Source: Syntrophaceae bacterium UBA2280
GTDB lineage: Bacteria; Desulfobacterota; Syntrophia; Syntrophales; Smithellaceae
DNA: 64,000 nucleotides
Direction of reading: 5' to 3'
Assembly: GCA_002347685.1 (NCBI GenBank)
Contig: DDWS01000046.1
Location: 151,772 to 215,771, forward strand
Made by a program: the position numbers and the translations under genes
In this document: positions 6,004 through 39,047 of the stretch, piece after piece
Layout of the letters: every line of letters starts with the position of its first letter
Position numbering within the stretch: the first letter of the stretch is position 1
The notes under the pieces: generated by a model
The model's database searches: none
The model's input: only the letters and a program-made list of their open reading frames with translations
Told to the model about the DNA's origin: nothing

Positions 6004-6009
6004 CTCTAT

Positions 6010-7680: not shown

Positions 7681-7811
7681 GACATACTCTTTTTCTAAAG
7701 AAAGAGTGGTGCACTTTGAACTGGAATTCACCATTTATATTCGATCTTGACAAGCACGTCTTGCTTTGATTAAAAGGTCACGCCGTTTAAGCATGTAACC
7801 TTAATCGCGCG

Positions 7812-7879
7812 GGCGATGGAGTTCGCCTTTAACCGCCTTTGCAGCTGATGACTCCTGAAAATGAATCTAAGGAGTCATC
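7812..7879 (+). promoter_or_regulatory. Fluoride riboswitch (crcB motif), copy 2, with SD-sequestering hairpin
   Basis: GGCGAUGGAGUUCGCCUUUAACCGCCUUUGCAGCUGAUGACUCCUG. The GGCGAUGGAGUUCGCC and UGAUGACUCCU blocks match the crcB-motif consensus as I remember it. Loop GGAGU (7818-7822) pairs with ACUCC (7851-7855). GAUGACUCCU (7847-7856) is perfectly complementary to AGGAGUCAUC (7870-7879), which contains the SD. Confidence 0.9.
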
Positions 7880-7881
7880 AT

Positions 7882-9084: not shown

Positions 9085-9090
9085 AACCGA

Positions 9091-9888: not shown

Positions 9889-10014
9889 TATATCTCTTTC
9901 CTTGTCTAATGATTTACGATGGTCGAGTAGCCTTACATGATAAATCCGTTTTTGTCCACTTCACTCGATCAATTCATCATCATTTCGTAATGATATAGGA
10001 TACCGGCGATCTTC

Positions 10015-10043
10015 TTGACACCCTGACGTCTAACGCTTATACT
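10015..10043 (+). promoter_or_regulatory. Sigma70-type promoter candidate, TTGACA-17 nt-TATACT
   Basis: Consensus -35 at 10015-10020, a 17-nt spacer and a near-consensus -10 at 10038-10043, about 45 nt upstream of the aldehyde dehydrogenase start. Confidence 0.5.
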
Positions 10044-10086
10044 AAAAGCGCTTGTCATTGCTTTCTTCATTCCCGGAGGACGGATC

Positions 10087-11475: not shown

Positions 11476-11492
11476 ACAGAAAGGACCCTTCC

Positions 11493-27100: not shown

Positions 27101-28360
27101 AATTCAGAAAGTACCGGTAAAATCAAAGGCAAAACCCTGCTCCTTCCCTGCTTTGATCCCATCAATTCCAAGCTTCTGGAAGCGGTGTTCATCAAAGAAG
27201 GCATCGACGCGCGAATGGTCCCCCTCACGGAAAAGATTATTCAGCGCGGTCTGCGCACCAATACCGGCCAGTGCCTGCCTGTAAACCTGATGGCGCAAAG
27301 CTATATGGATTATATCGAAGAAAACCTTCTGGACCCTTCCCAGACCGTAGGCTGGTGTTTTGACAGCCATGTTGCCTGTAACATCCGCCTGTATCCGCAA
27401 TTCATGAAAGGCATCATGGAAGCGGCAGGACACGGCATGGAAAAGGTCGACATGTATGTCGGCAGTCTATCGCTTTCCGACATCTCCATACAGGCCTCCA
27501 TTGAGGCATACTTCGCGCACATGCTCGGAGGCATGTTGCGTAAAATCGGCTGCAAGATTCGCCCCTATGAAAAAGAAAAAGGCATGACGGATAAGCTGAT
27601 TACCCAGTCTGTAAACATCCTCTATAATACCCTGCTGGGCGGCAGAAACAAGGATGACGATCTGACCCGTGTGATCAACCTGTTCAAACATATCGAGACT
27701 ACCTCGGGACACCGCCCGAAAGTCGCCATTTTCGGCGATATGTATGCCCGTGACAATGATGTGTTTAATCAGGATTTGATCCACTGCATTGAGGAATACG
27801 GAGGAGAAGTCATTACCACCCCGTTTAATGAATTCGCCAAACTCATCGCCGGCCCCTACATGCGCCGCTGGTTTCTGGAAGGCGAATTCATGGACGTCCT
27901 GTTTACCAAAACGATCATCACACTCGTCAGCCAGCTGGAGAAAAGCTATTATAAAATATTCAATGAACTTCTTGAGGAACCGGCGCCGGATGGCAACATG
28001 GATTATAAAATTTTATATGATCATTTTGATCTTACAGCGCAGCATTTTGGCGAATCGGCCGACAATCTGCTTAAAATTAACGCACTGATGCAGAAACACC
28101 CCGACATATCGCTCTTTGTGCAGACCAATCCCGCTTTCTGCTGCGCGGGTCTGGTCACCGAAGCCATGGCCGCCCGCATTGAAGAATACACAGGCGTTCC
28201 CGTCGTCACCCTCAATTACGACGGCACGGGAAAAAACATCAATTCCAGAATCAGTCCGTATATTCGATTTCCGCGAAACAAGAAAGGAAGTGCCAACGGA
28301 TATCCGCCAGACAACGCGACTTCTGTCAACGGCAGGGGCACCGTACTGCAAAGGAAATGA
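24116..28360 (+). CDS. Fused double BcrAD/BadFG (HgdC-like) activase plus 2-hydroxyacyl-CoA-dehydratase-like (DUF2229-type) protein; PlsAR / Ger-like candidate ether-lipid enzyme
   Basis: 1414 aa. Two ASKHA ATPase modules (VGIDIGS...SSCAAGTGSFLDQQA and LGIDIGSTSTKA...VCAAGTGSFIEEQA), a Cys-rich linker (CELCHNNCK), then two dehydratase-component-like halves (IGIPNALYLTEEMPLWKHFFATLG..., TLLLPCFDPINS...). The functional assignment rests on my recollection of the plsA/plsR and Ger families. Confidence 0.7.
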   Translation: MLHIVGIDIGSVALSVVITDDCGSLISASYQFHRGAIPETLRAILKNIDIGEIGGLAMTSSGPELFSDILRFDTQIAMIAAVKKHHQDVGSILFVGGENFGLITFNEQGDYEKFRSNSSCAAGTGSFLDQQAKRLNLKCIETLSTVAFCNQSATPKIATRCAVFAKTDLIHAQQEGYSVGQISDGLCEGLARNVIDTLVPDSSIRTPLILAGGVSMNAAVVKHFTQLLQTQPVIGEHSHLYGAIGAALLYLEEAKPAHLDKKSWNDLFVAEKKETTYGYPPLTLTLSHYPEFTTESSQLFNPANGHAAVEVDIYQPLLPIQNVYLGIDIGSTSTKAVLINNRNEVIAGLYTQTAGQPVKAVQALFETIDHIGRLQACEFVFDGVGATGSGRKFIGRIINADLIIDEITAHARAAYELNHEVDTIIEIGGQDAKFTTLKNGMVTSSIMNNVCAAGTGSFIEEQAVKLGVSLGEYAGRALNTPAPVSSDRCTVFMERDINNYLTEGYTVDEVLASVLHSVCENYLAKVAVEAGIGQSVCFQGATARNQALVAAFEHRLKKPIFVSKFCHLTGALGSALILAETAVRNSTFRGLSLYRETIPVENEICELCHNNCKINKVTVQDDTVAFGFLCGRDYDTKHYVGKTKKQYDLIKERSFAFPVEKKQKPIRNKVKIGIPNALYLTEEMPLWKHFFATLGVETISSEGMKNAIKAGKKLSGAEFCAPMSAFFGHVQYLVDKCDYIFLPIYLEAAKNKDEEFRYYCYYTQFASTLAAGIKSLRAKNRTVMPVIDHSSFQSRIELFSILKTILGTGYWEIYNAYEAALSYYNEGRGNLQNVYEREKPADGEISVALLGRPYSIMQKSMNKGIPDIFSALSVKTFYQDMLPADAEDLSEITPLLKRMHWNYAARILKSALHVARTPGLYPVYVTTFKCSPDSFTLDYFKRIMDKYGKPYLILELDEHDSNVGYETRIEAAIRSFHNHHLNKNLRQASTRVLPINSESTGKIKGKTLLLPCFDPINSKLLEAVFIKEGIDARMVPLTEKIIQRGLRTNTGQCLPVNLMAQSYMDYIEENLLDPSQTVGWCFDSHVACNIRLYPQFMKGIMEAAGHGMEKVDMYVGSLSLSDISIQASIEAYFAHMLGGMLRKIGCKIRPYEKEKGMTDKLITQSVNILYNTLLGGRNKDDDLTRVINLFKHIETTSGHRPKVAIFGDMYARDNDVFNQDLIHCIEEYGGEVITTPFNEFAKLIAGPYMRRWFLEGEFMDVLFTKTIITLVSQLEKSYYKIFNELLEEPAPDGNMDYKILYDHFDLTAQHFGESADNLLKINALMQKHPDISLFVQTNPAFCCAGLVTEAMAARIEEYTGVPVVTLNYDGTGKNINSRISPYIRFPRNKKGSANGYPPDNATSVNGRGTVLQRK

Positions 28361-28384
28361 TGGATGTGTAAAGGTTCATGCCGG

Positions 28385-28410
28385 GCGCAAAGCGTTGCGC
28401 TTTTGTTTTT
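28385..28410 (+). terminator. Rho-independent terminator
   Basis: GCGCAA-agcg-TTGCGC followed by TTTTGTTTTT, 25 nt after the stop of the 1414-aa gene. Confidence 0.75.
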
Positions 28411-28415
28411 ATATT

Positions 28416-30029
28416 TCAGCCCCAGTGCCAGGATACACCGCCTGCATCCTGCTGAACTTTTAAATAACCGCGGGCGATGAATTCGGAAACGGTGTCGCGG
28501 ATCAGCCGCGTGTCACCGGAAATGCATTGAGCCATGTGATCGGCCAGCATTTTCGCCGCCGTGTCACTGTTGCCGTTTATTGAAACGGATTCAATCCTCC
28601 CCAGTTTTTCGACGAGGTCTTCTTTCAGCATGGAAAATACGATCTTCGTCCGGTGATGACCGATCACGCGCATCTCGTCGCGCGGCGTGTTTGCGCCTGT
28701 CCCGTAATCGTCGAGCGTTTTCTGCCAGCCTTCGTTTATTTCCGCGTCATAGAGGGCGACAAAATCGCGCATATCCTGAGGTGAAACCGCCGATGTTCTC
28801 ACAATCGCGTCATTGGCGTCATATCGAGACCAGTTATCCGTCAGAATTTCCAAATCGTAGCGCTCTTTTTTCACACGTAAAGTCGTTCCGGGAAAGGGCG
28901 CCAGATAATGATATCCGAAAAAAAAGTCCAGTTCACGGGCAAATTTGTCCGTCTGCGCGAGAGTTTCCCGGGTTTCGCCCGGCAGGCCGACCATAAACGA
29001 TCCGTGCGGTATCATGCCGGCATTTTTACACATCTGCACCGCGTTTCTTGCCTGTTCCAGCGTAATGCCCTTGCGGACCCTTTTGAGCATCTCAGGACTA
29101 CCCGACTCGATTCCAAAACTGATGCTGTCGCAGCCTGCGGCCGCCATGACATCGAGCATTTCCTGTGTGACCGTGTCCACCCGCGCAAACGCGCTCCAGG
29201 ATAATTTCAGACCCCGCTCATGAATCCCCCGGCAAATCAACTTCACCCGTTCGGTATCCGACGCGAACAAATCATCGGCGATGTTGATGCGTTCAAAACC
29301 TAAATTCAGTATTTGCTCCATCTCGTCGAGCACCCGCTGCGGATCCCTGCGGCGCACTTTCGCGCCCACCATCTTTCGACCCAGGCAGAAGATGCAGCCA
29401 TGCGGACAGCCCCGTCCCGTGATCATGCTGACGGGATAACCCAGCGCCCGGTAGCGCGATATCGGCAGCAGATGACGCGCCGGCATGGGAAGGCGGTCGA
29501 TATCGGCGATGAAATCCCGCCTGCCGCTCTGGAATACTTTTTCACCTTCCCGCCAGGCGATGCCGGGGATGTCCGGCCATTTTGCTTTGTCGTTTGCTGC
29601 CGGAACCCATTCGGCGATCGTGCCTTCCGCCTCACCGATGAAGATCAGATCAATTTCCGGATAGGTGTTCAGCGTCTCTTCGACCGTAAACGACACATGC
29701 GGCCCGCCCATCATGGTGAGAATATCCGGATTGATGCTTTTCACATCGCGCAAAATCTTCTGCGCCTCGTAAAAATTCATCGTGACGGAACCGGCGCCCA
29801 CGGCGTCCGGCTGAAATTCCGCCAGTTGCGCTTCGAGTTTTTCTTTTGAATATCTGGAAATAATATAGTCGAAGATGCGCACTTCACAGCCCAACGCCTC
29901 GAACGCCGCGGCTACATACGATATGCCCAGCGGCGGCGATGGGAATTCTTCCAGCGGATAGGGTGCGGCAATGACGGCAACGCGCAATGTCAATCTCCTT
30001 TGCGCGGAAACAGGATGGATCTGATCCAT
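28416..30029 (-). CDS. B12-binding-domain radical SAM protein (class B rSAM)
   Basis: N-terminal Rossmann-like B12-binding region (RVAVIAAPYP..., RIFDYI...). CxxxCxxC motif GRGCPHGCIFCLG. The real start is probably TTG at about 29987, 7 nt after AAGGAG and just past the upstream stop. Confidence 0.8.
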   Translation of the reverse strand: MDQIHPVSAQRRLTLRVAVIAAPYPLEEFPSPPLGISYVAAAFEALGCEVRIFDYIISRYSKEKLEAQLAEFQPDAVGAGSVTMNFYEAQKILRDVKSINPDILTMMGGPHVSFTVEETLNTYPEIDLIFIGEAEGTIAEWVPAANDKAKWPDIPGIAWREGEKVFQSGRRDFIADIDRLPMPARHLLPISRYRALGYPVSMITGRGCPHGCIFCLGRKMVGAKVRRRDPQRVLDEMEQILNLGFERINIADDLFASDTERVKLICRGIHERGLKLSWSAFARVDTVTQEMLDVMAAAGCDSISFGIESGSPEMLKRVRKGITLEQARNAVQMCKNAGMIPHGSFMVGLPGETRETLAQTDKFARELDFFFGYHYLAPFPGTTLRVKKERYDLEILTDNWSRYDANDAIVRTSAVSPQDMRDFVALYDAEINEGWQKTLDDYGTGANTPRDEMRVIGHHRTKIVFSMLKEDLVEKLGRIESVSINGNSDTAAKMLADHMAQCISGDTRLIRDTVSEFIARGYLKVQQDAGGVSWHWG

Positions 30030-30733
30030 CCGAACAGCGAGTTTTTTTCGCGCATCGACCGTTCAATCATATCGTAAAATTCAGCCATTTTCTTTGGATC
30101 GGCCATCCACTGAGATCGCGACTTAATCGGCCTGTCCACTTCGAGATATCTGACCACGGAAGCGGGATTCCCGGCGGCAATCGCGTTGGCGGGAATGTCC
30201 TTGACCACGATGGAACCCGCGCCAATGACCGCGTTTTCCCCGATATGAACCCCCTTGCAAACCATCGCGCTGTCTCCAATCCACACATTTTTGCCGATAT
30301 GGACTTCTTGTGTGTTCCCGATGGATGCGCTTCGGTCATAAAGATCGTGCCAGTCAGCATCGGTAATGCAGACATTCTGGGCCAGCATGCAGTCATCGCC
30401 GATGATGACACCCGTGGCCGCCATGATTCTTGTCCCGGGGCAGATCAGGCAATGCCTGCCGATTTCAACCCTGCCGAACTGTTCATTCGCCGTCCAGGAC
30501 GTTAGACGGATTCGCTTTTCCGGGGTAGCAATCAATGTCGTGTGATCCCCAATGGAGACCAACCCGCCGTAAATTTCCACTCCCCATGGCTTCATAAAGA
30601 CCAGGTTGCGGCCGAAATATTCACATTGCGGGGCAAGGAAATGCTGGGCGTACCACTTTTCAAATTTGTAGCTTAATTTTTTAAGATAATATGGCCGATG
30701 ATCATGTCTCAATGTGATAAACCCTGAAACCAC
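29990..30733 (-). CDS. Left-handed beta-helix (hexapeptide repeat) acyl/acetyltransferase
   Basis: 247 aa. Repeated [LIV]G-x4 hexapeptides (IGDHTTLIA, IGRHCLICPG, IGDDCMLAQNV, IGKNVWIGDSAMV, IGENAVIGAGSIV). Confidence 0.8.
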   Translation of the reverse strand: MVSGFITLRHDHRPYYLKKLSYKFEKWYAQHFLAPQCEYFGRNLVFMKPWGVEIYGGLVSIGDHTTLIATPEKRIRLTSWTANEQFGRVEIGRHCLICPGTRIMAATGVIIGDDCMLAQNVCITDADWHDLYDRSASIGNTQEVHIGKNVWIGDSAMVCKGVHIGENAVIGAGSIVVKDIPANAIAAGNPASVVRYLEVDRPIKSRSQWMADPKKMAEFYDMIERSMREKNSLFGWIRSILFPRKGD

Positions 30734-30810
30734 TTCTTGCGTTGATTTGCAAAGACGCTGTAACCCATGTCCCTGATGTTTTATTCGCCGTCGTCATCTG
30801 TATTGCCGCG

Positions 30811-31860
30811 TCACTCACCTATATACAACGACGCTTGCTCCCGCCAATACTGATGGTTAAACAGGCCTGCGGCAGGCGTTATCTTGTTGATGGCGTCCCA
30901 TGCCATGAGGACCGCCGCGGCCGTCCAGCTGGTTTTCTCTTCCGGCCAGATAACGCTGTCCGGAAATGTCACACCCATCCAGTAGGACCCGTCCGGGTAA
31001 CGCTTATCGGACAGCCAGCTGAAGATGGTTCTCGCCCGGGTATCATCTCCAATCGCCGCAAGCGTCATGATGAGTTCGGATGATTCCGCCATCGTCACCC
31101 AGGGGCGATCGCTTACGCAGCGCACGCCCCAGTCAGGCACGACAAACTTCTCCCAAAGGTGACTGATTCGTTTTACGGCATCATCACCACTGAGGGCCCC
31201 GCACAAAACAGGGTAATACCAGTCCATCGAAAAACGGGATTTGATCATATTGAAAAGATCAGGACGGGTGCGAATCGCTGTTCCCAAACGTTCCTGGGCG
31301 GCCTGCCATGCGGACCGCTTCTTGCCCAGAATCCTGGCCACGGCAACCGCGCATTTGATGCTCATGTATATGGAACTGCACCCGGTCAGCAAAGACATCC
31401 GGTCTATGGCTCCTTCACGGTTTCTTGCCCAGTAGATTTCGCCGTTGGGCGTCTGCATGTTGATTGCGTACTGAATTCCCCGGGACAACACAGGCCACAT
31501 GGTTTTTAGAAAATCAAGGTCACCCGTGATCAGATAGTGATGGTATACGCCTACCGCCAGATAAGCGGCAAAGTTCGTTTCCTTGTTGTGATTGATAATC
31601 TCCCCGTCTTTGGTTTCCGACCACCAGCTGCCGTCGGGCAGCTGCGAAGAGGCCATCCATTGATAGGCGCTCTCGGCCTGAGGATAATAACCGGCGATAC
31701 TCAACCCCATGGCGCTTTCCACATGATCCCACGGATCGGTCTTCCCGCCGATCGACCAGGGAATCTCCCCGCTTTCCTTTTGCATCGATGTGATAAAATC
31801 AGCGATTTTTTCCACCTCAATGGGTTTGATCTGTTCACTCAATGATATATTCAATTCCAT
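30811..31860 (-). CDS. Alpha/alpha-toroid protein (prenyltransferase / terpene-cyclase-repeat-like, or six-hairpin glycosidase-like)
   Basis: 349 aa. Repeated aromatic and Asp-Gly-rich motifs (QKESGEIPWS, QLPDGSWW, QTPNGEIYW, RYPDGSYW) typical of prenyltransferase/squalene-oxidase repeats. Confidence 0.55.
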   Translation of the reverse strand: MELNISLSEQIKPIEVEKIADFITSMQKESGEIPWSIGGKTDPWDHVESAMGLSIAGYYPQAESAYQWMASSQLPDGSWWSETKDGEIINHNKETNFAAYLAVGVYHHYLITGDLDFLKTMWPVLSRGIQYAINMQTPNGEIYWARNREGAIDRMSLLTGCSSIYMSIKCAVAVARILGKKRSAWQAAQERLGTAIRTRPDLFNMIKSRFSMDWYYPVLCGALSGDDAVKRISHLWEKFVVPDWGVRCVSDRPWVTMAESSELIMTLAAIGDDTRARTIFSWLSDKRYPDGSYWMGVTFPDSVIWPEEKTSWTAAAVLMAWDAINKITPAAGLFNHQYWREQASLYIGE

Positions 31861-31864
31861 GGTC

Positions 31865-32566
31865 TTATCCTTTTTTCAGATAATAAACGATACTCTTACC
31901 CATCAGCGGGTTTAAGAGCTCTTCCAGCAGCCGCACCAAACGCGGTTTTTTCATAATATCCCATTCGAGAAACTTCTTATAAAGCCGAATCAGTATATTT
32001 CTTTCATTTTTCAGACCCACCAGGCACTTGAGCCACCAGTAGGGCGCATGCAGGGCATGCTTGTAGTTGATCTTCCAGCAGGTGGTGCCCTGTTTGGAGA
32101 GCATCTTTTGCAGCTTTTTCTTTTTGTAAATGCGGATATGGCCGCCTTCCTCATGGTAGTAGGCCGATGATATCAGCCAGCAGATTCTTTCTGAAAAATA
32201 GCGCGGCACACTGACGACCAGGTCGCCCTTCGGTTTTAATACGCGAACCAGTTCGGCAAGGGCCTTTTCGTGTTCGGGGATGTGTTCTAATACCTCCGAA
32301 CAGATCACACAGTCAAATACCGCATCGTCAAACGGCAGGACATTGATATCGGCACAGGCAACATGAAAGTCATGAGACAATGCGTCCGGCATCGTTTTCA
32401 GGCCTTGAATCGCCTCTTTGACATCGGCTTCATTCCGGTCGATGCCGAATATTTTTAAATCCGGCAGCTTCGCCAGTGCGCGCAGATGCCTGCCGCTGCC
32501 GCAGCCGGCATCAAGCACCATGGAACCGGGCTTTAACTTCAGTTCATGAAAGTCGATGGTGACCAT
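31865..32566 (-). CDS. Class I SAM-dependent methyltransferase
   Basis: 233 aa. Motif I VLDAGCGSGRH and a post-I acidic residue (FGIDRN). Overlaps the GT4 3' end by 23 nt. Confidence 0.85.
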   Translation of the reverse strand: MVTIDFHELKLKPGSMVLDAGCGSGRHLRALAKLPDLKIFGIDRNEADVKEAIQGLKTMPDALSHDFHVACADINVLPFDDAVFDCVICSEVLEHIPEHEKALAELVRVLKPKGDLVVSVPRYFSERICWLISSAYYHEEGGHIRIYKKKKLQKMLSKQGTTCWKINYKHALHAPYWWLKCLVGLKNERNILIRLYKKFLEWDIMKKPRLVRLLEELLNPLMGKSIVYYLKKG

Positions 32567-33806
32567 CTATTGCCTCACGATAAACTTCAACCACTTCCGC
32601 AGCGGCTTTGTTCCAGCTGAAAACCGATTGAACACGGGCAATGCCCGCCTGGGCGTATTTCTTTCGTTCTTCGGGAGAATTCAGCAGGTGCATAATCGCA
32701 TGAGCCAGCGCCCCGGCGTTTCCCGGAGGCACAATGATTCCCGCGTCGCCGACGACTTCCGGCAGTGCGCCGCCAGAGGTCGAAATCAGCGGCACTCCGC
32801 AGGCCATCGCCTCCGCCGCGGGGATACCGAACCCTTCATAAAGCGACGGAACAACGGCCACTGTTGACTTTGCGTAGTACTCGGCAAATTCCTCATTGGC
32901 AATTCGCCCGGTAAATTGCACGACGTCACTCACGCCCAATTTTGCGACAAGATTTTCAATGATGCCGTTTTTCTTCGGCTCTCCAATGACGGTCAGTTTG
33001 ACTGACTGCTTCTTGCGAATTTGCGCCACCGCCTCCAGAAGGAAATTAAGCCCCTTCAACGGCGTATCCGCGCTGTTGGTGACAATAATGGTATTTTCAG
33101 GTCTCGGACCGTTTTGTACCGGATAAAAATATTCATGATTGATCCCGTTGTGGACCACCCGGAATTTATTTTCATCCAGCGAAAATTCTTTTGCGATATC
33201 TTTCTTGGTGAATTCAGATACCGTAATGATGTGGGAAAACTTTCTGGCCACCTTCAGTTGCATCCGGATGAATGAATACCAGCGTAAAACACGATACTTC
33301 TGATAAAGGTTTTTTGCCACCTTGAAATCCTCGTGCTTATCCACCGTGATCGGGTGATGGATGGTTACAACCGTCGGCATCACTTTTTGGGCGATTCTTC
33401 CGATCCCGTAGGACAGGCACTGGTTATCATGAACGATATCATAATCATTGCGATGTTTTTTCAGATACGAATAGACCCGCTCGCCAAAGGTGAAGGGCTC
33501 CGGGAAACTTCCCGTGCAAACATTTAAATATTCATACAGATTGAGCGGACGTACCAGATCTCTGATTTTTTCGGGAATAAAAAGATGTTCAGCATTGTAC
33601 AGATCGAGACTGGGCAGCCGGATGAGGCGGACATTGTCGTCCAGGTGTGGGTAAGGCGGCCCGGAGATAACATCGACATGATGTCCGAGATCCGCCAGCG
33701 CCTTGCTTAAATGCTTGATATAAACACCCTGCCCGCCGCAGGTAGGATTACCACGATAGGTCAGCAGGCAGATTTTCAACGGTCTTGAATTGGAACCCTT
33801 TTTCAC
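32544..33806 (-). CDS. Glycosyltransferase family 4 (GT-B, group 1)
   Basis: 420 aa. N-terminal GGQGVYIKHLSKALADLGHHV, and a C-terminal EGFGIPAAEAMACGVPLISTSGGALPEVV (E-x7-E type) motif. The GTG start overlaps the PHP stop (GTGA). Confidence 0.85.
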   Translation of the reverse strand: MKKGSNSRPLKICLLTYRGNPTCGGQGVYIKHLSKALADLGHHVDVISGPPYPHLDDNVRLIRLPSLDLYNAEHLFIPEKIRDLVRPLNLYEYLNVCTGSFPEPFTFGERVYSYLKKHRNDYDIVHDNQCLSYGIGRIAQKVMPTVVTIHHPITVDKHEDFKVAKNLYQKYRVLRWYSFIRMQLKVARKFSHIITVSEFTKKDIAKEFSLDENKFRVVHNGINHEYFYPVQNGPRPENTIIVTNSADTPLKGLNFLLEAVAQIRKKQSVKLTVIGEPKKNGIIENLVAKLGVSDVVQFTGRIANEEFAEYYAKSTVAVVPSLYEGFGIPAAEAMACGVPLISTSGGALPEVVGDAGIIVPPGNAGALAHAIMHLLNSPEERKKYAQAGIARVQSVFSWNKAAAEVVEVYREAIDGHHRLS

Positions 33807-34504
33807 GCACAGGCCCTCTGGATAAGCTTATTTGAATTCTCAAACATGACGGAAATTTCTTCGTCGGACAAACCCGCGCCGCGGGCGATATTCATCGCCA
33901 TTTTGGCGCCGACATAATCGCCGGGAGTGTGTGCGTCGTTGTTGAGAACCAGTTTTGCGTTATATTTTCTGGCCGCCTGGGCGACATGGCCGTTTGTGTA
34001 ACTGTGCCCACGGCGCGTCGTAATCTCCAGACAGATGCCCTTTTCAGCTGCAAGCTTTACTTCAGAATCCTTGATTAACCCGGGATGGGCTAAAATATCG
34101 ACGCCCGCCTCAATGGCCGCCAGATTCGTGCCGGCCGGTACGGGTTCTGTTAGCGTTTCGCCATGGACAATGACAATTTTCGCTCCGAGTTTACGGGCTT
34201 CGGCGGCAAGGGATGCAATATCGGAAGGATCGACATGCGTCAGTTCCACACCGGGAATCACCTGAATGTTCCCTTTCTGGGTGATCCTCGTGCAGGCCTT
34301 GACAATCCTTGGAATCATGAAATCCAAATTGGAGTAATCCCCGTGATCCGTGACGGCAATCGTTTTGTAACCGGCGGCAAACGCGCGCTGCGCGGATTCC
34401 GAAGGAACCAGCACCCCGTCACTGAAAATGGAATGTGTATGCAGATCAATCACTTGGAAAGCCCAACCCGGATATTTAACAATCTTGTGAAAACCTTTGG
34501 TCAT
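33803..34504 (-). CDS. PHP-domain metal-dependent phosphoesterase
   Basis: 233 aa. DLHTHSIFSDG, AVTDHGD, VELTH, IVHGE, ILAHPG and NNDAHTPGD are the His/Asp ligand motifs of the PHP family. Confidence 0.8.
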   Translation of the reverse strand: MTKGFHKIVKYPGWAFQVIDLHTHSIFSDGVLVPSESAQRAFAAGYKTIAVTDHGDYSNLDFMIPRIVKACTRITQKGNIQVIPGVELTHVDPSDIASLAAEARKLGAKIVIVHGETLTEPVPAGTNLAAIEAGVDILAHPGLIKDSEVKLAAEKGICLEITTRRGHSYTNGHVAQAARKYNAKLVLNNDAHTPGDYVGAKMAMNIARGAGLSDEEISVMFENSNKLIQRACA

Positions 34505-34673
34505 TTAACAGATTTATAACCGGGAGTCAATAAAGATCATGATATTCCTGCATAATAAAAAACAAATAGACTTTCTGGATCATTGCCCATGCTGTCTTCG
34601 ATGCGAGAATCCACATGTTTATCCCACGGCGCGTGATGTTCAACTTTGATATGTGCTTAAGTGTTTTAACACC

Positions 34674-34718
34674 TTGACAAATGTAGCATTTAGCTTTACA
34701 TAAAGCTTGGTAATACCA
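34674..34718 (+). promoter_or_regulatory. Promoter candidate (TTGACA-17 nt-TACATA) followed by a FadR/GntR-type operator TGGTAATACCA
   Basis: -35 at 34674-34679 and -10 at 34697-34702. A perfect 11-bp palindrome at 34708-34718 fits the TGGT-N3-ACCA operator consensus of FadR-subfamily GntR regulators. It lies 30 nt upstream of the GntR gene. Confidence 0.55.
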
Positions 34719-34747
34719 CCTGCCATATTGATAGAAATGAGGGAACC

Positions 34748-35479
34748 ATGCTCGAAGATTTGCTCGAACCCATTAAGACAGAGAGCCTCAAAGATGTTTT
34801 TGTGCTTCGTTTCGAAGAACTGATTCTCTCGGGCAAATTGAAGATCGGGCAGAAGCTGCCGTCGGAAAGAGAGCTTGCCCTTCAGCTTGGTGTGAGCCGT
34901 CCTGTCGTGCACGAAGGTCTCGTTTTGCTCACAACGCGCGGCCTTGTCTCACTTAAACCCCGTTTCGGCGCGACGGTTAACGATTATCGGAAAGAAGGGT
35001 CCATTACCCTGCTCTCATCGCTGATACATTATCAAAAAGGAAAACTTGAGCCTGAACTTCTTGAGAGCCTGCTGCAAATGAGACTGCTTCTGGAACCACC
35101 GTTTGCCCGTTTAGCAGCAGAAAATCGAACACAGGAACAAGTCCGGGAATTCCAGAGGATCCTTGAGATGGAAGAATCCGCCGATGCCAGGAATACTCAA
35201 ATGATAACCGATCTGGATTTTGATTTCCATCTTCTGATCGCCGTGGCTTCGGGCAATACGGTATACCCGCTTCTTTTAAATTCCTTCAGGCCTGTTTACA
35301 CCAATCTCTCCGGCCAGTTTTTCAAAGACCCGCAGGTGATCGCCGCCGTTCATCAATATCATCGGAATATGATCAAAGCCATTGAAGCCGGGCACGGGGG
35401 AAAAGCAACGTCCGTCATGAAGGAGATCCTTTGCCACGGAGAAAAACATCTCCGGCGAATGATTGACCGGCAAGCATAA
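34748..35479 (+). CDS. GntR-family transcriptional regulator, FadR subfamily (FCD C-terminal domain)
   Basis: 243 aa. Winged-HTH motif KLPSERELALQLGVSRPVVHEGL and an all-helical C-terminal domain. Confidence 0.85.
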   Translation: MLEDLLEPIKTESLKDVFVLRFEELILSGKLKIGQKLPSERELALQLGVSRPVVHEGLVLLTTRGLVSLKPRFGATVNDYRKEGSITLLSSLIHYQKGKLEPELLESLLQMRLLLEPPFARLAAENRTQEQVREFQRILEMEESADARNTQMITDLDFDFHLLIAVASGNTVYPLLLNSFRPVYTNLSGQFFKDPQVIAAVHQYHRNMIKAIEAGHGGKATSVMKEILCHGEKHLRRMIDRQA

Positions 35480-35504
35480 CCGCGTCTTAACAAGGGAGGT
35501 TCAA

Positions 35505-38015
35505 ATGAATACCCGTTCAGCACCCGAATATGACATCAAACAGCCCCGGGGGTTATCCGATCGTATCTCGTGGCTTCGGAATTACTATTTCAGGGGCAAC
35601 GATCGGCCATGGAACAACGAATACACATCCTGGACGACAGGAACCCCCTGGGACATCATCTATAATGAACTGACTTTTTATATCGTGCCCGAAACCTATA
35701 CGCTGCTCAACACACTGGGGGCTTCCTATCTTCAGGCCGCCCGCCCTGTCGTCCTTCATCCGGATTTCTGGCAGTGGCCGCTTGTGGAACGGCGTGCGTG
35801 GTTCGTCCGGGAGGCAATCGTGAATTATGTGCCTCAGGAAATTCTGCCGGGCGATCTGCTGGCTGGCGCAAGGTTTAATATTCAGACATCCATGTGCCTG
35901 ACTCAGAAGGAAAGCAGCAAATGGGTAATGCAGGTGAAAGGCAAAAACGGAGCCCGGGCAAAAATGAAATGGTTTCATGACCATGGTTACGGCAATGCCG
36001 GTGCCACAAGCGGTCATCTGATCCCCGGCCATGAGCGCCTGCTCAAAATCGGCTGGAAGGGTGTGCACGCGGAACTCATGTCTTTCTACAACGCCCTCAG
36101 CAAAACCAAACGCTCCGGATCAAAAGGCTCTCAATTGAGAGCCATGATCACCGCTTCGACCATGGCACGCGATCTGGCTTCAAAATATAGAGGATTATGC
36201 GAGAACCTCGCATCAAACGAACCGGATGCTGTTCGCGCAGGCGAGCTTCGAAGCATGGCTGAAAACCTGAACAAAGTGCCGTGGGAACCGGCAAAAACGT
36301 TCTGGGAGGCCGTGCAGGCGCTGTGGATCAACCACATGCTTGTGATGACGGATGAAAATTATCCCGGCGCGGGCGTTTCATTCGGCCGAGTCGACCAGTA
36401 TCTGTATCCTTATTATGAAAGGTCCATCCGCGACGGCATGAATCGGGAGTTCGCCAAAGAAATTCTTAAATGCTTCTGGATTCACGCCAACACGGCTTAT
36501 GACGCGATGATCCGAAACGGCAATCAGGGAATTACCGCCGGATTCGGACAGCTCATCACGCTTTCCGGCCTCGGGGCGGAAGGCAGGGACATGACCAATG
36601 ATCTCACCTATGTCATTCTTGAAGTGATAGACGAAATGTCGCCCATTTTGGAACCTAAACCCAATATACGACTGCACCATAACACCCCCGAAGAGCTGTA
36701 TGACAGGATCGTCGATATGATCGAATCCAGTCAGGGAGCGCCCTTCCTGTTGAATTTTGACGAACGTTCCATGGCCGGCATGATGCTTGAGGCAAGAAAA
36801 GCCGGCCTGACCCATCTGATTCATAAGGATAATGTTCATGAATATGCGCCTGTCGGATGTCTGGAAAATACGATGGTCGGCAATGACCGATCCGGCACGG
36901 TGGACAATAATCTCAACCTGCTCAAAGCCGTGGAGCTTGCACTGACCGGTGGAAAAGATCTGCTGCCTTTTTGCGACCCCATGACGGGGAAAACCCATTC
37001 CGTCAGGCAGGACGGTCCCCGCACCCGGGATGCAGCGGCTTTTAAAACCTGGGAGGCATTCTGGAAAGCGTATACTCTACAAACACGATACATTATTCAA
37101 AAATGCGTTGATGTGTATGAAGCATCCGAATCCATACGCGCCCGCTTCTTTCCCACACCTTACCTTTCCTGCCTGGTCGAGGGCTGCGCCCAAACGGGTA
37201 AGGACGTCACCCAGGGCGGCGCTCAGATCAGTTTCACCACTCTTGAAGCGGTTACCTATGCCACAACCGTGGATTCACTGCTGGCTATCAAATACCTTGT
37301 CTTTGACAAAAAAGCCTGCACCATGTCTGAATTGGTTTGTGCTCTCACGGCGAACTGGCAGGGATTTGAGGTTCTTCAGGCCATGGCCAAAAATCGCGCC
37401 CCCAAATACGGCCGCGACGATGATGAAGCGGATGCTCTTGCCCGCCGGGTGATGCAACTGTGGTGCGATGAAACCTGGAGACACAGCACCCGGGCAACAG
37501 GACGCAGATACCGCCCGGGCATGCTGAGTTGGAACTACTGGGCCGGCGACGGGTACATCCTGCCTGCAAGCGCCGATGGAAGACAGAAGGGCCAGTTTCT
37601 ATCCAATGCTATCTGTCCATCAAACGGGGCGGACACCAAGGGCCCCACTGCAAACGCAAACTCGGTGGGCAAGGTGCTTGGCGGGAAAGCGAAAGATACA
37701 TCCGGAGACTGGCCAGACTACGTAAATGATCTCCCGAATGGCGCAAGCCACACGATCACGTTCAATCCTTCTATTCTGAAAGATCCGGTGCATAAAGATA
37801 AATTCAAAGCGTTTCTAAAGGGCTATACACATAACGGTGGCACAGCTTTACAGATCAACATCCTTGATCCCGGGATGCTCAAAGACGCGCAAGCGCATCC
37901 GCAGGACTACCGCCATCTTCTGGTGCGCATCACCGGTTATAATGCCTACTTTACAACCGTCGGACGGGAACTTCAGAATGAAGTGATTGAACGCGTCAGC
38001 CATCATAAATTTTAA
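35505..38015 (+). CDS. Glycyl radical enzyme (PFL2 / glycerol-dehydratase-like clade), substrate unknown
   Basis: 836 aa from ATG 35505, with GGGAGG upstream. Thiyl loop VGCLEN (Cys codon 36858-36860, Glu 36864-36866). C-terminal glycyl radical motif VRITGYNAYFTTVGRELQNEVIERV (Gly codon 37935-37937). Confidence 0.85.
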   Translation: MNTRSAPEYDIKQPRGLSDRISWLRNYYFRGNDRPWNNEYTSWTTGTPWDIIYNELTFYIVPETYTLLNTLGASYLQAARPVVLHPDFWQWPLVERRAWFVREAIVNYVPQEILPGDLLAGARFNIQTSMCLTQKESSKWVMQVKGKNGARAKMKWFHDHGYGNAGATSGHLIPGHERLLKIGWKGVHAELMSFYNALSKTKRSGSKGSQLRAMITASTMARDLASKYRGLCENLASNEPDAVRAGELRSMAENLNKVPWEPAKTFWEAVQALWINHMLVMTDENYPGAGVSFGRVDQYLYPYYERSIRDGMNREFAKEILKCFWIHANTAYDAMIRNGNQGITAGFGQLITLSGLGAEGRDMTNDLTYVILEVIDEMSPILEPKPNIRLHHNTPEELYDRIVDMIESSQGAPFLLNFDERSMAGMMLEARKAGLTHLIHKDNVHEYAPVGCLENTMVGNDRSGTVDNNLNLLKAVELALTGGKDLLPFCDPMTGKTHSVRQDGPRTRDAAAFKTWEAFWKAYTLQTRYIIQKCVDVYEASESIRARFFPTPYLSCLVEGCAQTGKDVTQGGAQISFTTLEAVTYATTVDSLLAIKYLVFDKKACTMSELVCALTANWQGFEVLQAMAKNRAPKYGRDDDEADALARRVMQLWCDETWRHSTRATGRRYRPGMLSWNYWAGDGYILPASADGRQKGQFLSNAICPSNGADTKGPTANANSVGKVLGGKAKDTSGDWPDYVNDLPNGASHTITFNPSILKDPVHKDKFKAFLKGYTHNGGTALQINILDPGMLKDAQAHPQDYRHLLVRITGYNAYFTTVGRELQNEVIERVSHHKF

Positions 38016-38027
38016 GGCCGCTTAGCG

Positions 38028-39047
38028 ATGATGCAACCTGAAACTAAAAAAGGCGTTATTCTGGAAATTCACCGCATGTCCACCGAAGACGGTCCCGGCA
38101 TCAGAACGACTGTATTTTTTAAAGGATGTTCACTGGCCTGCCTTTGGTGTCATAATCCGGAGAGCATCAGCCCCAAACCACAGATCCAGTGGATGCAGAC
38201 AAGCTGCATCGGATGTGGAATCTGTGCTGAAACCTGTCCCGAAAAAGCCCTGAAGAAAACCACAAGAGGGATCACGATCAATCGGCTGTTGTGCAACGGC
38301 TGCGGTTTATGTACGGAGGAATGCCCCACAACCGCCATGGAGCTTCTGGGAAAGAAATGGTCGGTGCACGACCTTGCGGACGAACTGGCAAAGGACCGTG
38401 TATATTTTGAACAGTCCGGCGGCGGCGTTACCCTGTCCGGTGGCGAGGCGGCCCTGCAGAGCGATTTTAGCCTTGCGCTTCTAAAAGATCTCCGCGGCAG
38501 AGGCATTCAAACCGCGCTGGATACCTGCGGTCAGGTACCGCAGGTGGTTCTGGCAAGCCTGTTGCCGTATGTGGATATTCTTCTGTATGACCTCAAAGAA
38601 ATTGATTCTAAAAAACATAAGTCTTTTACCGGTTCAGGCAATAAAAAGATTCTGGCCAACGCCCGGTTCGTGGCCGATTACAGAAAATCGCACATCTTTC
38701 CCAAAACCATCTGGATTCGCACCCCGGTGATTCCGGACGCAACAGACACGCCTGAAAACATTCGGGGGCTTGGTGAATTTATCATGGACAACATGCAAGG
38801 CGCCATTGACCGCTGGGAGCTGTGCGCTTTTAACAACCTTTGTCGGGACAAGTACATCAGGCTGGGGCTGAGCTGGCCGTATGCGCATACAGCTCTTCTT
38901 GAGAAAAGGCGAATGGAAGAACTCACACAGATCGCCAAAAGCATTGTGACGCCCTCTGTGGTTTACTGGAGCGGGTCAACCAGGCTGCCTGCAGCCCCCC
39001 ATCCTAAACCGGCGGAAAAGCAAAAAGTACCCGTTTCCCGGTGCTGA
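38028..39047 (+). CDS. Glycyl-radical enzyme activating protein (radical SAM with ferredoxin-type insert)
   Basis: GPGIRTTVFFKGCSLACLWCHNPE (CxxxCxxC) plus two auxiliary cluster motifs (CIGCGICAETCP, CNGCGLCTEECP). Confidence 0.9.
   Translation: MMQPETKKGVILEIHRMSTEDGPGIRTTVFFKGCSLACLWCHNPESISPKPQIQWMQTSCIGCGICAETCPEKALKKTTRGITINRLLCNGCGLCTEECPTTAMELLGKKWSVHDLADELAKDRVYFEQSGGGVTLSGGEAALQSDFSLALLKDLRGRGIQTALDTCGQVPQVVLASLLPYVDILLYDLKEIDSKKHKSFTGSGNKKILANARFVADYRKSHIFPKTIWIRTPVIPDATDTPENIRGLGEFIMDNMQGAIDRWELCAFNNLCRDKYIRLGLSWPYAHTALLEKRRMEELTQIAKSIVTPSVVYWSGSTRLPAAPHPKPAEKQKVPVSRC

What the first reader, a model, noticed from the sequence alone, without database searches (positions are those of the whole stretch)
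28416..34504. Translationally coupled six-gene operon (PHP, GT4, methyltransferase, alpha/alpha-toroid, LbH acyltransferase, B12-rSAM) with no product I can assign
All six genes are on the minus strand with overlapping or near-abutting ends: GTGA at 33803-33806, a 23-nt overlap at 32544-32566, a 4-nt gap at 31861-31864 and a stop/start junction at 29985-29992. Together they encode a phosphoesterase, a retaining-type GT4, a SAM methyltransferase, a prenyltransferase/terpene-cyclase-repeat or six-hairpin protein, a hexapeptide acyltransferase and a cobalamin-type radical SAM enzyme. This looks like a pathway that builds a methylated and acylated glycoside or glycolipid, possibly through a phosphorylated intermediate (GT4 plus phosphatase logic) with a radical C-methylation or C-C step. 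It converges on the PlsAR/Ger-like ether-lipid gene, so a membrane-lipid headgroup or chain modification role is plausible. I do not recognise it as any characterised cluster.
Basis: inference. Interest (0 to 1): 0.7.

Follow-up and report, generated by a model that had tools for sequence, protein, structure and literature searches.

The report
Methylmannose polysaccharide operon in a syntroph
This operon is an anaerobe's version of the mycobacterial gene cluster that builds and recycles a methylated mannose polysaccharide thought to bind fatty-acyl chains, here carrying three extra tailoring enzymes (a phosphatase, an acyltransferase and a B12 radical SAM enzyme) whose chemistry is still unknown.

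Summary
In detail: six co-directional minus-strand genes with the stated overlaps. One 77-98 nt gap (mmpH/LbH) was not mentioned.

The claim of "no characterised cluster" does not hold for the three central genes.
- The GT4 is a close homologue of M. hassiacum ManT, an alpha-1,4-mannosyltransferase (E 8e-103, 44% identity).
- The "alpha/alpha toroid" is a close homologue of the endomannosidase MmpH (E 4e-105, 49% identity). All catalytic and subsite residues are conserved.
- The methyltransferase is the syntenic orthologue of pMeT3.

The order manT-meT3-mmpH is conserved in Actinomycetota, marine Gammaproteobacteria and Desulfobacterota.

In Syntrophales-like genomes the LbH acyltransferase (33/33) and the B12-rSAM (27/28) follow mmpH. 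The MeT1 orthologue usually lies convergent just downstream, but it is absent from this 64-kb window.

A search starting from the rSAM recovers the same cluster in 30 of 35 loci. PHP is an accessory gene (15/27). A HAD hydrolase takes its place in 6/27, and the two never co-occur.

The PlsA-like, GntR and glycyl-radical neighbours are not conserved next to the cluster.

Best reading: a cytoplasmic, probably O-acylated, radical-SAM-modified MMP-like polysaccharide. This is a new variant of a known kind. I found no report of such clusters outside Actinobacteria in the searchable library.

The parts
33803..34504 (-). PHP-family phosphoesterase (NCBIfam NF004981/PRK06361 type). First gene of the operon; its stop overlaps the manT start (GTGA).
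   Evidence: Pfam PHP E 1.7e-10. NCBIfam NF004981 scores 291.9 bits against a cutoff of 117. Present directly upstream of manT in 15/27 Syntrophales-like genome loci and 24/30 metagenome loci; never together with the HAD alternative. Orthologues are mostly 216-219 aa, so the true start may lie about 15 codons downstream.
32544..33806 (-). ManT orthologue: GT4 (GT-B) alpha-(1->4)-mannosyltransferase of the methylmannose polysaccharide pathway.
   Evidence: PDB 7qsg (M. hassiacum ManT): E 7.8e-103, 44% identity over 401 residues. G15, H142, K240, E313, G314, F315 and E321 are invariant in 62 homologues. Syntenic with meT3 and mmpH in three phyla.
31865..32566 (-). pMeT3 orthologue: class I SAM-dependent methyltransferase, the putative mannose 3-O-methyltransferase.
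   Evidence: Pfam Methyltransf_11 E 1.4e-22. It is 41-46% identical over 100% of its length to the methyltransferase lying between manT and mmpH in every mycobacterial locus. 56 positions are at least 95% conserved across 63 sequences, many outside the SAM-binding fold. No similarity to MeT1.
30811..31860 (-). MmpH orthologue: (alpha/alpha)6-barrel endo-alpha-(1->4)-mannosidase that cleaves MMP into primers.
   Evidence: PDB 7qsj: E 3.7e-105, 49% identity over 320 residues. The equivalents of W49, D50, N101, T163, M215, Y219, E262, E265 and W315 are invariant in all 78 homologues, and D47 in 77 of 78. No signal peptide is visible in the sequence.
29990..30733 (-). Left-handed beta-helix (hexapeptide) O-acyltransferase of the sugar/polysaccharide O-acetyltransferase type. 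The alternative TTG start at 30712 gives 240 aa.
   Evidence: Pfam Hexapep E 9e-16. Best NCBIfam hits are WbbJ, LacA and Maa, all below cutoff. Nearest solved structures are polysialic acid O-acetyltransferase, maltose O-acetyltransferase and galactoside O-acetyltransferase; His in DWHDL and Trp in NVWIG align with the NeuO active-site motifs. It follows mmpH in 33/33 Syntrophales-like loci.
28416..29987 (-). B12-binding radical SAM enzyme (523 aa from the TTG at 29987; Shine-Dalgarno AAGGAG at 29995-30000). Reaction unknown.
   Evidence: Pfam B12-binding scores 80 bits (cutoff 32) and Radical_SAM 95 bits. The CxxxCxxC motif is C194/C198/C201. It falls below the cutoff of every curated NCBIfam B12-rSAM family. 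Nearest structures are AprD4, MgmA/QCMT, TokK, OxsB, TsrM and CysS. It lies next to the MMP genes in 27/28 Syntrophales-like genome loci. In the reverse search, 30/35 loci carry ManT and MmpH upstream.
34505..34747 (.). 243-nt divergent intergenic region between the operon and a GntR/FadR-type regulator gene; presumed promoter region.
   Evidence: Sequence read. No Rfam element. No sigma-70 consensus match in this stretch.
28383..28402 (.). GC-rich hairpin between the convergent ends of the rSAM gene and the PlsA-like gene. Likely terminator, scored on the + strand.
   Evidence: 8-bp stem followed by TTGTTTTTAT; sequence.

Best explanation
The block is an operon for a cytoplasmic polymethylated polysaccharide of the mycobacterial methylmannose polysaccharide (MMP) type, in a Smithellaceae/Syntrophales bacterium.

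Core cycle, inferred by orthology with the characterised M. hassiacum enzymes:
- MmpH cuts existing alpha-(1->4)-linked 3-O-methylmannose chains into short oligomers.
- ManT elongates those oligomers with mannose, most likely from GDP-mannose.
- The pMeT3 orthologue 3-O-methylates the new residues with SAM.

Lineage-specific tailoring, inferred from family and conserved linkage:
- The LbH enzyme O-acylates the chain, probably with acetyl or another short acyl group from acyl-CoA. This would give something like the acetylated MMP of Streptomyces griseus.
- The B12-radical SAM enzyme performs a further, anaerobe-specific modification of the polysaccharide. Most likely this is C-methylation of a sugar carbon or of the O-methyl group.
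- The PHP phosphoesterase, replaced by a HAD hydrolase in other lineages, probably dephosphorylates a phosphorylated precursor or primer.

MeT1, which caps the reducing end by 1-O-methylation, flanks the cluster in most relatives but is missing from this window.

The physiological role is inferred from mycobacterial work: a soluble host for long acyl chains.
For: Shown:
- Strong full-length homology of two proteins to the solved, biochemically characterised ManT and MmpH.
- The mutagenesis-validated residues are invariant (D47 in 77 of 78 MmpH homologues): MmpH D47, D50 and E262; ManT K240, E313 and E321. So are the MmpH subsite residues (PMC9883506 sections read).
- The methyltransferase is 41-46% identical over its full length to the gene in the pMeT3 position of all mycobacterial loci.
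- The gene order manT-meT3-mmpH is conserved in Actinomycetota (25/25), Gammaproteobacteria (4/4) and Syntrophales-like genomes (31/31 and 30/31).
- The convergent gene after the rSAM in relatives is a MeT1 orthologue (PDB 6g7d, E 1.4e-52).
- LbH (33/33) and rSAM (27/28) are fixed parts of the Syntrophales-like cluster.
- A search seeded with the rSAM returns the MMP genes in 30/35 loci, and MeT1 within 1.5 kb in 42/59.
- The rSAM stays with the MMP genes in two loci without LbH (L046, L048). LbH stays with MmpH in loci without the rSAM. They are therefore independent tailoring modules acting on the same product.
- LbH belongs to the sugar O-acetyltransferase branch.
- An acetylated MMP exists in S. 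griseus (PMC9883506).
- No transporter, flippase, signal peptide or membrane domain is present in the six genes, which fits a cytoplasmic polymer.
Against: - No chemistry has been done on any organism carrying this version of the cluster.
- 44-49% identity does not prove identical sugar, linkage or donor. The ManT position that contacts the guanine base (D293) is Asp only in Actinomycetota. It is Asn here and variable in other Desulfobacterota.
- MeT1 is absent from the 64-kb window.
- The rSAM matches no curated family. Its nearest solved relative by sequence, AprD4, is a dehydratase that does not bind cobalamin (PMC12931638), so methylation is only a prior.
- PHP is missing from 12 of 27 Syntrophales-like loci, and its substrate is unknown.
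- Syntrophales presumably lack the FAS-I system that MMP is thought to modulate in mycobacteria (my own knowledge), so the physiological role may differ.
Confidence: 0.7

Rival explanations
1. The operon makes a related but chemically different methylated glycan, with another hexose, linkage or nucleotide donor. The homology to ManT, pMeT3 and MmpH would then reflect a shared enzyme family, not the same polymer.
For: Identities are only 41-49%. The guanine-contacting Asp293 of ManT is not conserved outside Actinomycetota. Desulfobacterota, Gammaproteobacteria and Actinomycetota form deep separate clades in the MmpH tree.
Against: Every MmpH residue proposed to bind the methylmannose units is invariant in 78 sequences from three phyla; F102, which varies among hydrophobic residues, is the one exception. 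The mannosyl-binding loop E313-G314-F315 of ManT is invariant. All four MMP genes, including MeT1, travel together in relatives.
Confidence: 0.15
2. One reading: the operon modifies a membrane lipid (glycolipid headgroup or chain), and is functionally linked to the adjacent PlsA/Ger-like ether-lipid gene.
For: The 1414-aa convergent neighbour has the BcrAD_BadFG + DUF2229 architecture expected of PlsA-type enzymes. One rSAM lineage has a PlsC-type acyltransferase immediately upstream. NCBIfam lists a lipid-biosynthesis B12-rSAM (TIGR04072) among the weak hits.
Against: The PlsA-like adjacency is found only in contigs of the same species. It is absent from 79 of the 80 other genome loci; the single exception (L037) carries a 36%-identical homologue about 6.6 kb upstream of mmpH on the same strand, not a convergent neighbour of the cluster. 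None of the six proteins has a membrane or lipid-carrier domain. The core enzymes are orthologues of soluble enzymes acting on a soluble cytoplasmic polysaccharide (PMC9883506).
Confidence: 0.05
3. The block is mainly catabolic or a salvage system. MmpH degrades methylmannans acquired from other organisms or from storage, and the other genes process the fragments.
For: MmpH is a hydrolase. In Desulfobacterales-like genomes MmpH and LbH occur without ManT, MeT3, rSAM or MeT1 nearby, and in three loci next to FadB/FadA-like genes.
Against: In this window and all Syntrophales-like loci the hydrolase is flanked by a glycosyltransferase and methyltransferases, which are biosynthetic. There is no uptake system in the operon. 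In mycobacteria MmpH is itself required for biosynthesis, because it generates the primers (PMC9883506).
Confidence: 0.07
4. PHP and/or the rSAM are passengers with unrelated functions that merely share a transcript with the MMP genes.
For: PHP is absent from many loci and belongs to a very large generic family (7889 relatives at E<=1e-10 among the 8000 candidates scored). The rSAM also occurs with MeT1 but without the core genes within 6 kb in one lineage.
Against: The rSAM subfamily is almost never seen away from MMP genes in either search direction. PHP is translationally coupled to manT, and the link is kept across 54-80% identity. PHP and the HAD hydrolase exclude each other at the same position, which looks like non-orthologous displacement of a needed activity.
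Confidence: 0.15

Closest known systems
Mycobacterial methylmannose polysaccharide (MMP) gene cluster meT1-mmpH-pmeT3-manT (M. hassiacum MHAS_04402-04405, M. smegmatis MSMEG_6481-6484; Maranha et al. 2023, PMC9883506)
   Same: Orthologues of ManT, pMeT3 and MmpH in the same order. Catalytic and substrate-binding residues are conserved. The proteins are soluble and there is no export machinery. A MeT1 orthologue flanks the cluster in most Desulfobacterota relatives.
   Different: The host is an anaerobic syntrophic Desulfobacterota bacterium, not an actinobacterium. Three extra genes (PHP, LbH acyltransferase, B12-rSAM) are never seen in the 25 actinobacterial loci examined. MeT1 is absent from this window. 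The ManT guanine-contact Asp is replaced by Asn.
Acetylated methylmannose polysaccharide (AMMP) of Streptomyces griseus (Harris & Gray 1977, cited in PMC9883506)
   Same: An MMP-type chain carrying ester groups, which is what ManT, pMeT3 and an O-acyltransferase together would produce.
   Different: The AMMP acetyltransferase gene is not identified in the literature I could read. No LbH homologue lies within 10 kb of mmpH in the Embleya (Streptomycetaceae) loci. Any similarity is therefore at product level only, and untested.
Mycobacterial methylglucose lipopolysaccharide (MGLP) locus Rv3030-Rv3037c plus GpgS/GpgP (own knowledge; PMC2674218, PMC3240985 and PMC4555173 listed)
   Same: The same logic: a GT4 alpha-1,4-glycosyltransferase, SAM methyltransferases, a hexapeptide acetyltransferase, and a phosphatase acting on a phosphorylated primer, all building a cytoplasmic polymethylated, acylated polysaccharide that binds acyl chains.
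   Different: The sugar is glucose, methylated at O-6. Apart from the family-level resemblance of the GT4 and LbH enzymes, the proteins are not orthologous. There is no radical SAM enzyme.
Cobalamin-dependent radical SAM enzymes acting on sugars or on O-methyl groups: GenK/GenD1, Fom3, MoeK5, CysS, TokK (review PMC12931638)
   Same: An N-terminal B12-binding domain plus a CxxxCxxC radical SAM core. The structural neighbours of the model are TsrM, CysS, OxsB, MgmA and TokK. There are precedents for C-methylation of carbohydrates and for iterative extension of a methoxy group.
   Different: It is below the cutoff of all curated families. Sequence distance to methylases and non-methylases (HpnJ, BchE, AprD4) is about the same. 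The substrate would be a polysaccharide, for which I know no precedent.

Membership tests
MMP biosynthesis/recycling cluster | ManT-type GT4 alpha-(1->4)-mannosyltransferase with the GT-B catalytic residues (G15, H142, K240, E313, E321) | tested here: met
   7qsg E 7.8e-103, 44% identity. All five residues are conserved in the window protein and invariant in 62 homologues.
MMP biosynthesis/recycling cluster | MmpH-type (alpha/alpha)6 endomannosidase with the catalytic D47/D50 and E262 and the subsite residues | tested here: met
   7qsj E 3.7e-105, 49% identity. W49, D50, N101, T163, M215, Y219, E262, E265 and W315 are invariant in 78 homologues and D47 in 77 of 78; all are present in the window protein.
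MMP biosynthesis/recycling cluster | pMeT3-type SAM methyltransferase encoded between manT and mmpH | tested here: met
   41-46% identity at 100% coverage to the gene in that position in all mycobacterial loci. 56 positions are at least 95% conserved over 63 sequences. The 3-O-methyltransferase activity is itself only putative in the literature.
MMP biosynthesis/recycling cluster | MeT1 1-O-methyltransferase in the cluster | tested here: not met
   tblastn with 33 MeT1 orthologues finds no hit anywhere in the 64-kb window. It is present and convergent after the rSAM in 19/27 Syntrophales-like genome loci and 42/59 metagenome loci. It could lie elsewhere in this genome.
MMP biosynthesis/recycling cluster | GDP-mannose as donor (guanine contact by Asp293) | tested here: inconclusive
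   The position is Asn in the window, and N, D, Y, H, Q or G in other Desulfobacterota. It is Asp in all 24 actinobacterial sequences. The mannosyl-binding loop is invariant.
MMP biosynthesis/recycling cluster | Product is a linear alpha-(1->4) 3-O-methylmannose chain | not testable with these tools
   Needs purification and MS/NMR of the polysaccharide.
Cobalamin-dependent radical SAM enzymes | CxxxCxxC cluster motif and an N-terminal B12-binding domain | tested here: met
   C194/C198/C201 are invariant. PF02310 scores 80.2 bits (cutoff 32.1) and PF04055 scores 95.3 bits. The structural neighbours are all class-1 B12-rSAMs, but the model is poor (pLDDT 67.5, pTM 0.43).
Cobalamin-dependent radical SAM enzymes | Membership of a curated functional family (HpnJ, BchE, ApyD, PhpK, BzaD, MgmA, HpnR, AprD4 and others) | tested here: not met
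   The best scores, 179-104 bits, fall far short of cutoffs of 360-750 bits.
Cobalamin-dependent radical SAM enzymes | Methyl transfer to an unactivated carbon | not testable with these tools
   Needs anaerobic reconstitution with cobalamin, SAM and methylmannose oligomers.
LbH sugar O-acetyltransferases (Maa/LacA/NeuO type) | Hexapeptide-repeat beta-helix with the active-site His and Trp | tested here: met
   Hexapep E 9e-16. DWHDL and NVWIG align with SDGHPIF and YVWVG of NeuO 3jqy. Which NeuO residues are catalytic comes from my own knowledge.
LbH sugar O-acetyltransferases (Maa/LacA/NeuO type) | Score above the cutoff of a curated equivalog (WbbJ, LacA, Maa, WcaF) | tested here: not met
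   77-70 bits against cutoffs of 192-347 bits. It is a distinct subfamily with an N-terminal extension of about 85 aa.
PHP phosphoesterase, NCBIfam NF004981 (PRK06361) | Score above the curated cutoff over the full length | tested here: met
   291.9 bits against a cutoff of 117, covering residues 19-231 of 233. The family has no assigned substrate.
   The PlsA-like gene is next to the cluster only in same-species contigs L001-L003. It is absent from all other loci except L037, where a 36%-identical homologue lies about 6.6 kb upstream of mmpH on the same strand, not convergent with the cluster.

The most novel reading that the evidence does not exclude
Polymethylated polysaccharides are not an actinobacterial speciality. 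Anaerobic Desulfobacterota (Syntrophales, Desulfomonilia, Desulfarculus relatives) and marine Gammaproteobacteria would make MMP-like cytoplasmic polysaccharides.

The anaerobes would decorate theirs with a modification installed by a dedicated cobalamin radical SAM enzyme acting on a polysaccharide. Examples would be C-methylation of mannose, or extension of the 3-O-methyl group to ethyl or isopropyl. Ester groups would be added as well.

The result would be a more hydrophobic acyl-chain host, used by syntrophic degraders of fatty acids and hydrocarbons.
Probability: 0.35. Interest if true: 0.72.

Novelty: new variant of a known kind. Interest (0 to 1): 0.55.

Why it matters
MMP and MGLP are described in the literature as unique to mycobacteria and a few related actinobacteria (PMC2674218, PMC9883506). 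The published cluster survey looked only at actinobacterial genomes.

Here the same four-gene system turns up as deep, phylum-level clades in Desulfobacterota and Gammaproteobacteria. Its role therefore cannot be tied to mycobacterial FAS-I or the mycobacterial envelope.

The anaerobic version adds a dedicated B12-radical SAM enzyme. If it acts on the polysaccharide, that would be a new substrate class for this superfamily.

The recurring phosphatase (PHP or HAD) may point to the unsolved de novo priming step of MMP synthesis. The mycobacterial work could not explain that step, because ManT does not extend mono- or dimannosides.

In practice, the NCBI name "phenyltransferase domain-containing protein" carried by these MmpH homologues is a misannotation that could be corrected.

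Tried and rejected
- Link to the PlsA-like, GntR/FadR and glycyl-radical neighbours. tblastn of nine flanking window proteins against 80 genome loci shows that none is conserved beside the cluster. Rejected as context.
- LbH-rSAM gene fusion (Rosetta stone) in L015 and L033. The long ORFs were artefacts of my ORF caller reading an out-of-frame upstream stretch. Rejected.
- Riboswitch or other RNA element (cobalamin, SAM) in the operon or its leader. Rfam finds nothing at E<=1.
- Assigning the rSAM to a function. Sequence search (NCBIfam, PDB) and an AlphaFold model with Foldseek (pLDDT 67.5, pTM 0.43) only confirm the B12-rSAM architecture. Methylases (TsrM, CysS, MgmA, TokK) and non-methylases (OxsB, AprD4) are about equally close.
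- The homologue searches for MmpH, the rSAM and PHP listed only close Smithellaceae orthologues without informative names.
- The rSAM methylating the LbH-installed acyl group. Made less likely because the rSAM persists without LbH (L046, L048) and LbH without the rSAM. However, one lineage has a PlsC-type acyltransferase directly upstream of the rSAM, so it is not excluded.
- rSAM loci without the core genes. L120 has a Mutator-family transposase fragment directly upstream. L123-L125 and L138 are a separate lineage with a stable alternative arrangement.
- The 2019 PNAS paper on MeT1 could not be read; it is not held.
- Literature searches for methylmannose together with Smithella or any Proteobacteria, and for 3-O-methylmannose in general, found no report outside Actinobacteria, fungi, algae, invertebrates and O-antigen caps.

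Full report
**The observation.** The window has six minus-strand ORFs at 33803-34504, 32544-33806, 31865-32566, 30811-31860, 29990-30733 and 28416-30029. Read on the minus strand, that last junction is TGA-CA-TTG, preceded by AAGGAG. The radical SAM gene therefore most likely starts at the TTG at 29987 and encodes 523 aa, the length of nearly all orthologues. Pfam and NCBIfam confirm the six domain calls: PHP, GT4, class I methyltransferase, a weak six-hairpin glycosidase signal, hexapeptide transferase, and B12-binding plus radical SAM. There is no convincing internal terminator, and no Rfam element in or upstream of the block.

**What the core is.** The GT4 matches 7qsg, the alpha-(1->4)-mannosyltransferase ManT from the same study (E 7.8e-103, 44% identity). 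The next-best GT4 structure scores only 1e-34. Both enzymes were characterised biochemically and structurally by Maranha et al. 2023 (PMC9883506). In mycobacteria the four genes meT1, mmpH, pmeT3 and manT make MMP, a cytoplasmic chain of 11-14 alpha-1,4-linked 3-O-methylmannoses. MmpH cuts mature chains into oligomers. ManT then re-elongates these and MeT1 re-caps them.

**Residue-level check.** The residues shown by mutagenesis or structure to matter are present in the window proteins. In MmpH these are D47, W49, D50, N101, T163, M215, Y219, E262, E265 and W315, invariant in 78 homologues from three phyla except for a single D47N. In ManT they are G15, H142, K240, E313, G314, F315 and E321, invariant in 62 homologues. 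The one exception is ManT D293, proposed to contact the guanine of GDP-mannose. It is Asp in all actinobacterial sequences, Asn in the window, and variable in other Desulfobacterota. The donor nucleotide is therefore inferred, not shown.

**The methyltransferase and MeT1.** I scanned one genome per GTDB species with an MmpH alignment. At least 598 loci encode a relative, and the best 80 were kept. In all 25 actinobacterial, all 4 gammaproteobacterial and 30-31 of 31 Syntrophales-like loci with enough sequence, the order is ManT, methyltransferase, MmpH. The window methyltransferase is 41-46% identical over its whole length to the mycobacterial gene in that position, which is pMeT3. Fifty-six positions are at least 95% conserved over 63 sequences, many of them outside the SAM-binding fold. 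Clustering all ORFs of the loci revealed a further shared family of about 205-235 aa. It lies convergent just after MmpH in mycobacteria and gammaproteobacteria, and just after the radical SAM gene in Desulfobacterota. It is the orthologue of MeT1 (PDB 6g7d, E 1.4e-52). The complete four-gene MMP system therefore exists in Desulfobacterota. In this window, however, MeT1 is absent (no tblastn hit in 64 kb), as it is in a few close relatives (L008, L086, L087, L089, L091, L098).

**The three extra genes.** In Syntrophales-like genomes the LbH gene follows mmpH in 33/33 loci, and the B12-radical SAM gene follows in 27/28. Neither occurs in the actinobacterial loci. I then ran the reverse test by scanning metagenome contigs with a radical SAM alignment. 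Of 35 loci with enough upstream sequence, 30 carry ManT and MmpH and 31 carry LbH. Of 59 loci with enough downstream sequence, 42 have MeT1 within 1.5 kb. The exceptions are a locus with a transposase fragment upstream (L120) and one lineage in which a PlsC-type acyltransferase precedes the radical SAM gene and MeT1 still follows it. The radical SAM gene also stays with the MMP genes in two loci that lack LbH (L046, L048). LbH stays with MmpH in Desulfobacterales-like loci that lack the radical SAM gene. I read the two as independent tailoring modules for the same product.

PHP lies directly upstream of manT, translationally coupled, in 15/27 Syntrophales-like genome loci and 24/30 metagenome loci. 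In 6/27 genome loci a divergent HAD-superfamily hydrolase sits there instead, and the two never co-occur. That pattern looks like non-orthologous displacement of a phosphatase activity the pathway needs.

**What the extra enzymes probably do.**
- LbH: its best matches are sugar and polysaccharide O-acetyltransferases (WbbJ, LacA, Maa; polysialic acid O-acetyltransferase NeuO). His and Trp align with the NeuO active-site motifs. Streptomyces griseus is known to make an acetylated MMP (PMC9883506). O-acylation of the methylmannose chain is therefore the natural assignment.
- Radical SAM enzyme: it has a bona fide B12-binding domain and a CxxxCxxC motif, but it falls below the cutoff of every curated family. 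Its nearest solved relatives are AprD4, MgmA/QCMT, TokK, OxsB, TsrM and CysS by sequence. In a Foldseek search of a mediocre model the order is TsrM, CysS, OxsB, MgmA, TokK, then AprD4. Most characterised members of this superfamily are C-methyltransferases, including enzymes acting on carbohydrates, and CysS extends a methoxy group (PMC12931638). I therefore favour C-methylation of the polysaccharide, at roughly 0.5. Other radical chemistry cannot be excluded.
- PHP: it belongs to NCBIfam NF004981 (292 bits against a cutoff of 117), a family without an assigned substrate. A role in dephosphorylating a phosphorylated primer is an inference only.

**Context.** Exact copies of the proteins occur on JGI and Logan metagenome contigs. 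The nearest named relatives are Smithella, Smithellaceae and Syntrophaceae MAGs. The divergent side carries a GntR/FadR regulator, a glycyl radical enzyme and its activase. None of these neighbours is conserved next to the cluster in other genomes, so the proposed ether-lipid link is not supported. The MmpH tree separates Desulfobacterota, Gammaproteobacteria and Actinomycetota into deep clades. This argues against a recent transfer from actinobacteria.

**Comparison with what is known.** The core is a member of the MMP system. Three of the four defining genes are present with their catalytic residues; the fourth (MeT1) is present in relatives but not in this window. The extended operon is a new variant: a different phylum and lifestyle, plus three added enzymes. 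I found no report of MMP-type clusters or of methylmannose polysaccharides outside Actinobacteria in the searchable library. The published survey was restricted to actinobacterial genomes. NCBI annotates these MmpH homologues as "phenyltransferase domain-containing protein" or as hypothetical.

**Verdict.** The statement that no product can be assigned is wrong for the core, which is an MMP-type polymethylated mannan system. What remains unknown, and interesting, is the chemistry of the B12-radical SAM enzyme and of the phosphatase, and the reason why syntrophic anaerobes keep such a polysaccharide. Interest 0.55; a new variant of a known kind.

Noticed in passing
window 5925-5986 and 7803-7864 (+): Two fluoride riboswitches (55.9 and 52.1 bits against a gathering score of 34). 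The first precedes a dynamin-family GTPase ORF (6010-7680), an unusual partner. The second precedes a Na+/H+ exchanger-family ORF (7861-9084).
   Followed up: partly
window 24116-28360 (+): A 1414-aa protein with two BcrAD_BadFG ATPase domains plus DUF2229, the architecture of fused PlsA-type plasmalogen/ether-lipid enzymes. It converges on the operon, but the adjacency is not conserved in other genomes.
   Followed up: partly
window 34748-39047 (+): Divergent from the operon: a GntR/FadR_C regulator, a PFL-like glycyl radical enzyme (850-aa ORF, called as 836 aa) and its radical SAM activase, followed by a 291-aa ORF with no Pfam match. The substrate of the glycyl radical enzyme is unknown.
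   Followed up: no
L038, L044, L049 (Desulfobacterium/Desulfobacteraceae MAGs), about 6000-11800: Desulfobacterales-like genomes carry MmpH plus LbH without ManT, MeT3, rSAM or MeT1 nearby. In these three loci the pair sits directly beside a FadB-like multifunctional enzyme (about 813 aa) and a thiolase. This may hint at a link between the polysaccharide and beta-oxidation.
   Followed up: partly
L125 5056-8361 (also L123, L124, L138): In one rSAM lineage a PlsC-family acyltransferase (PF01553) sits 51 nt upstream of the rSAM gene, in the place of LbH, and MeT1 follows convergently. No ManT or MmpH lies within 6 kb.
   Followed up: partly
L015, L016, L024, L026, L057 (and a fragment in L027), upstream of manT on the opposite strand: A HAD-superfamily hydrolase of about 330-360 aa occupies the position that PHP has in other lineages. 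PHP and HAD never co-occur.
   Followed up: yes
L077-L079, L054 (Luminiphilus, Halieaceae, Alteromonadaceae and Cellvibrionales MAGs): Marine Gammaproteobacteria carry ManT-MeT3-MmpH, in three of the four loci with a convergent MeT1. The arrangement matches mycobacteria, with no rSAM. One of them (L054) has a 37%-identical LbH after mmpH.
   Followed up: partly
L120 5181-5753 (-): A Mutator-family transposase fragment lies directly upstream of the rSAM gene where LbH and MmpH are expected. This suggests the cluster was disrupted in that organism.
   Followed up: no
proteins P0016, P0019, P0026, P0030, P0049, P0076: NCBI names the Smithella/Syntrophaceae MmpH homologues "phenyltransferase domain-containing protein". 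This looks like a misannotation of an (alpha/alpha)6 glycoside hydrolase.
   Followed up: no
window 33803-34504 (-): Most PHP orthologues are 216-219 aa and cover only about 92% of the 233-aa window ORF. The annotated ATG at 34504 may therefore lie upstream of the real start.
   Followed up: no
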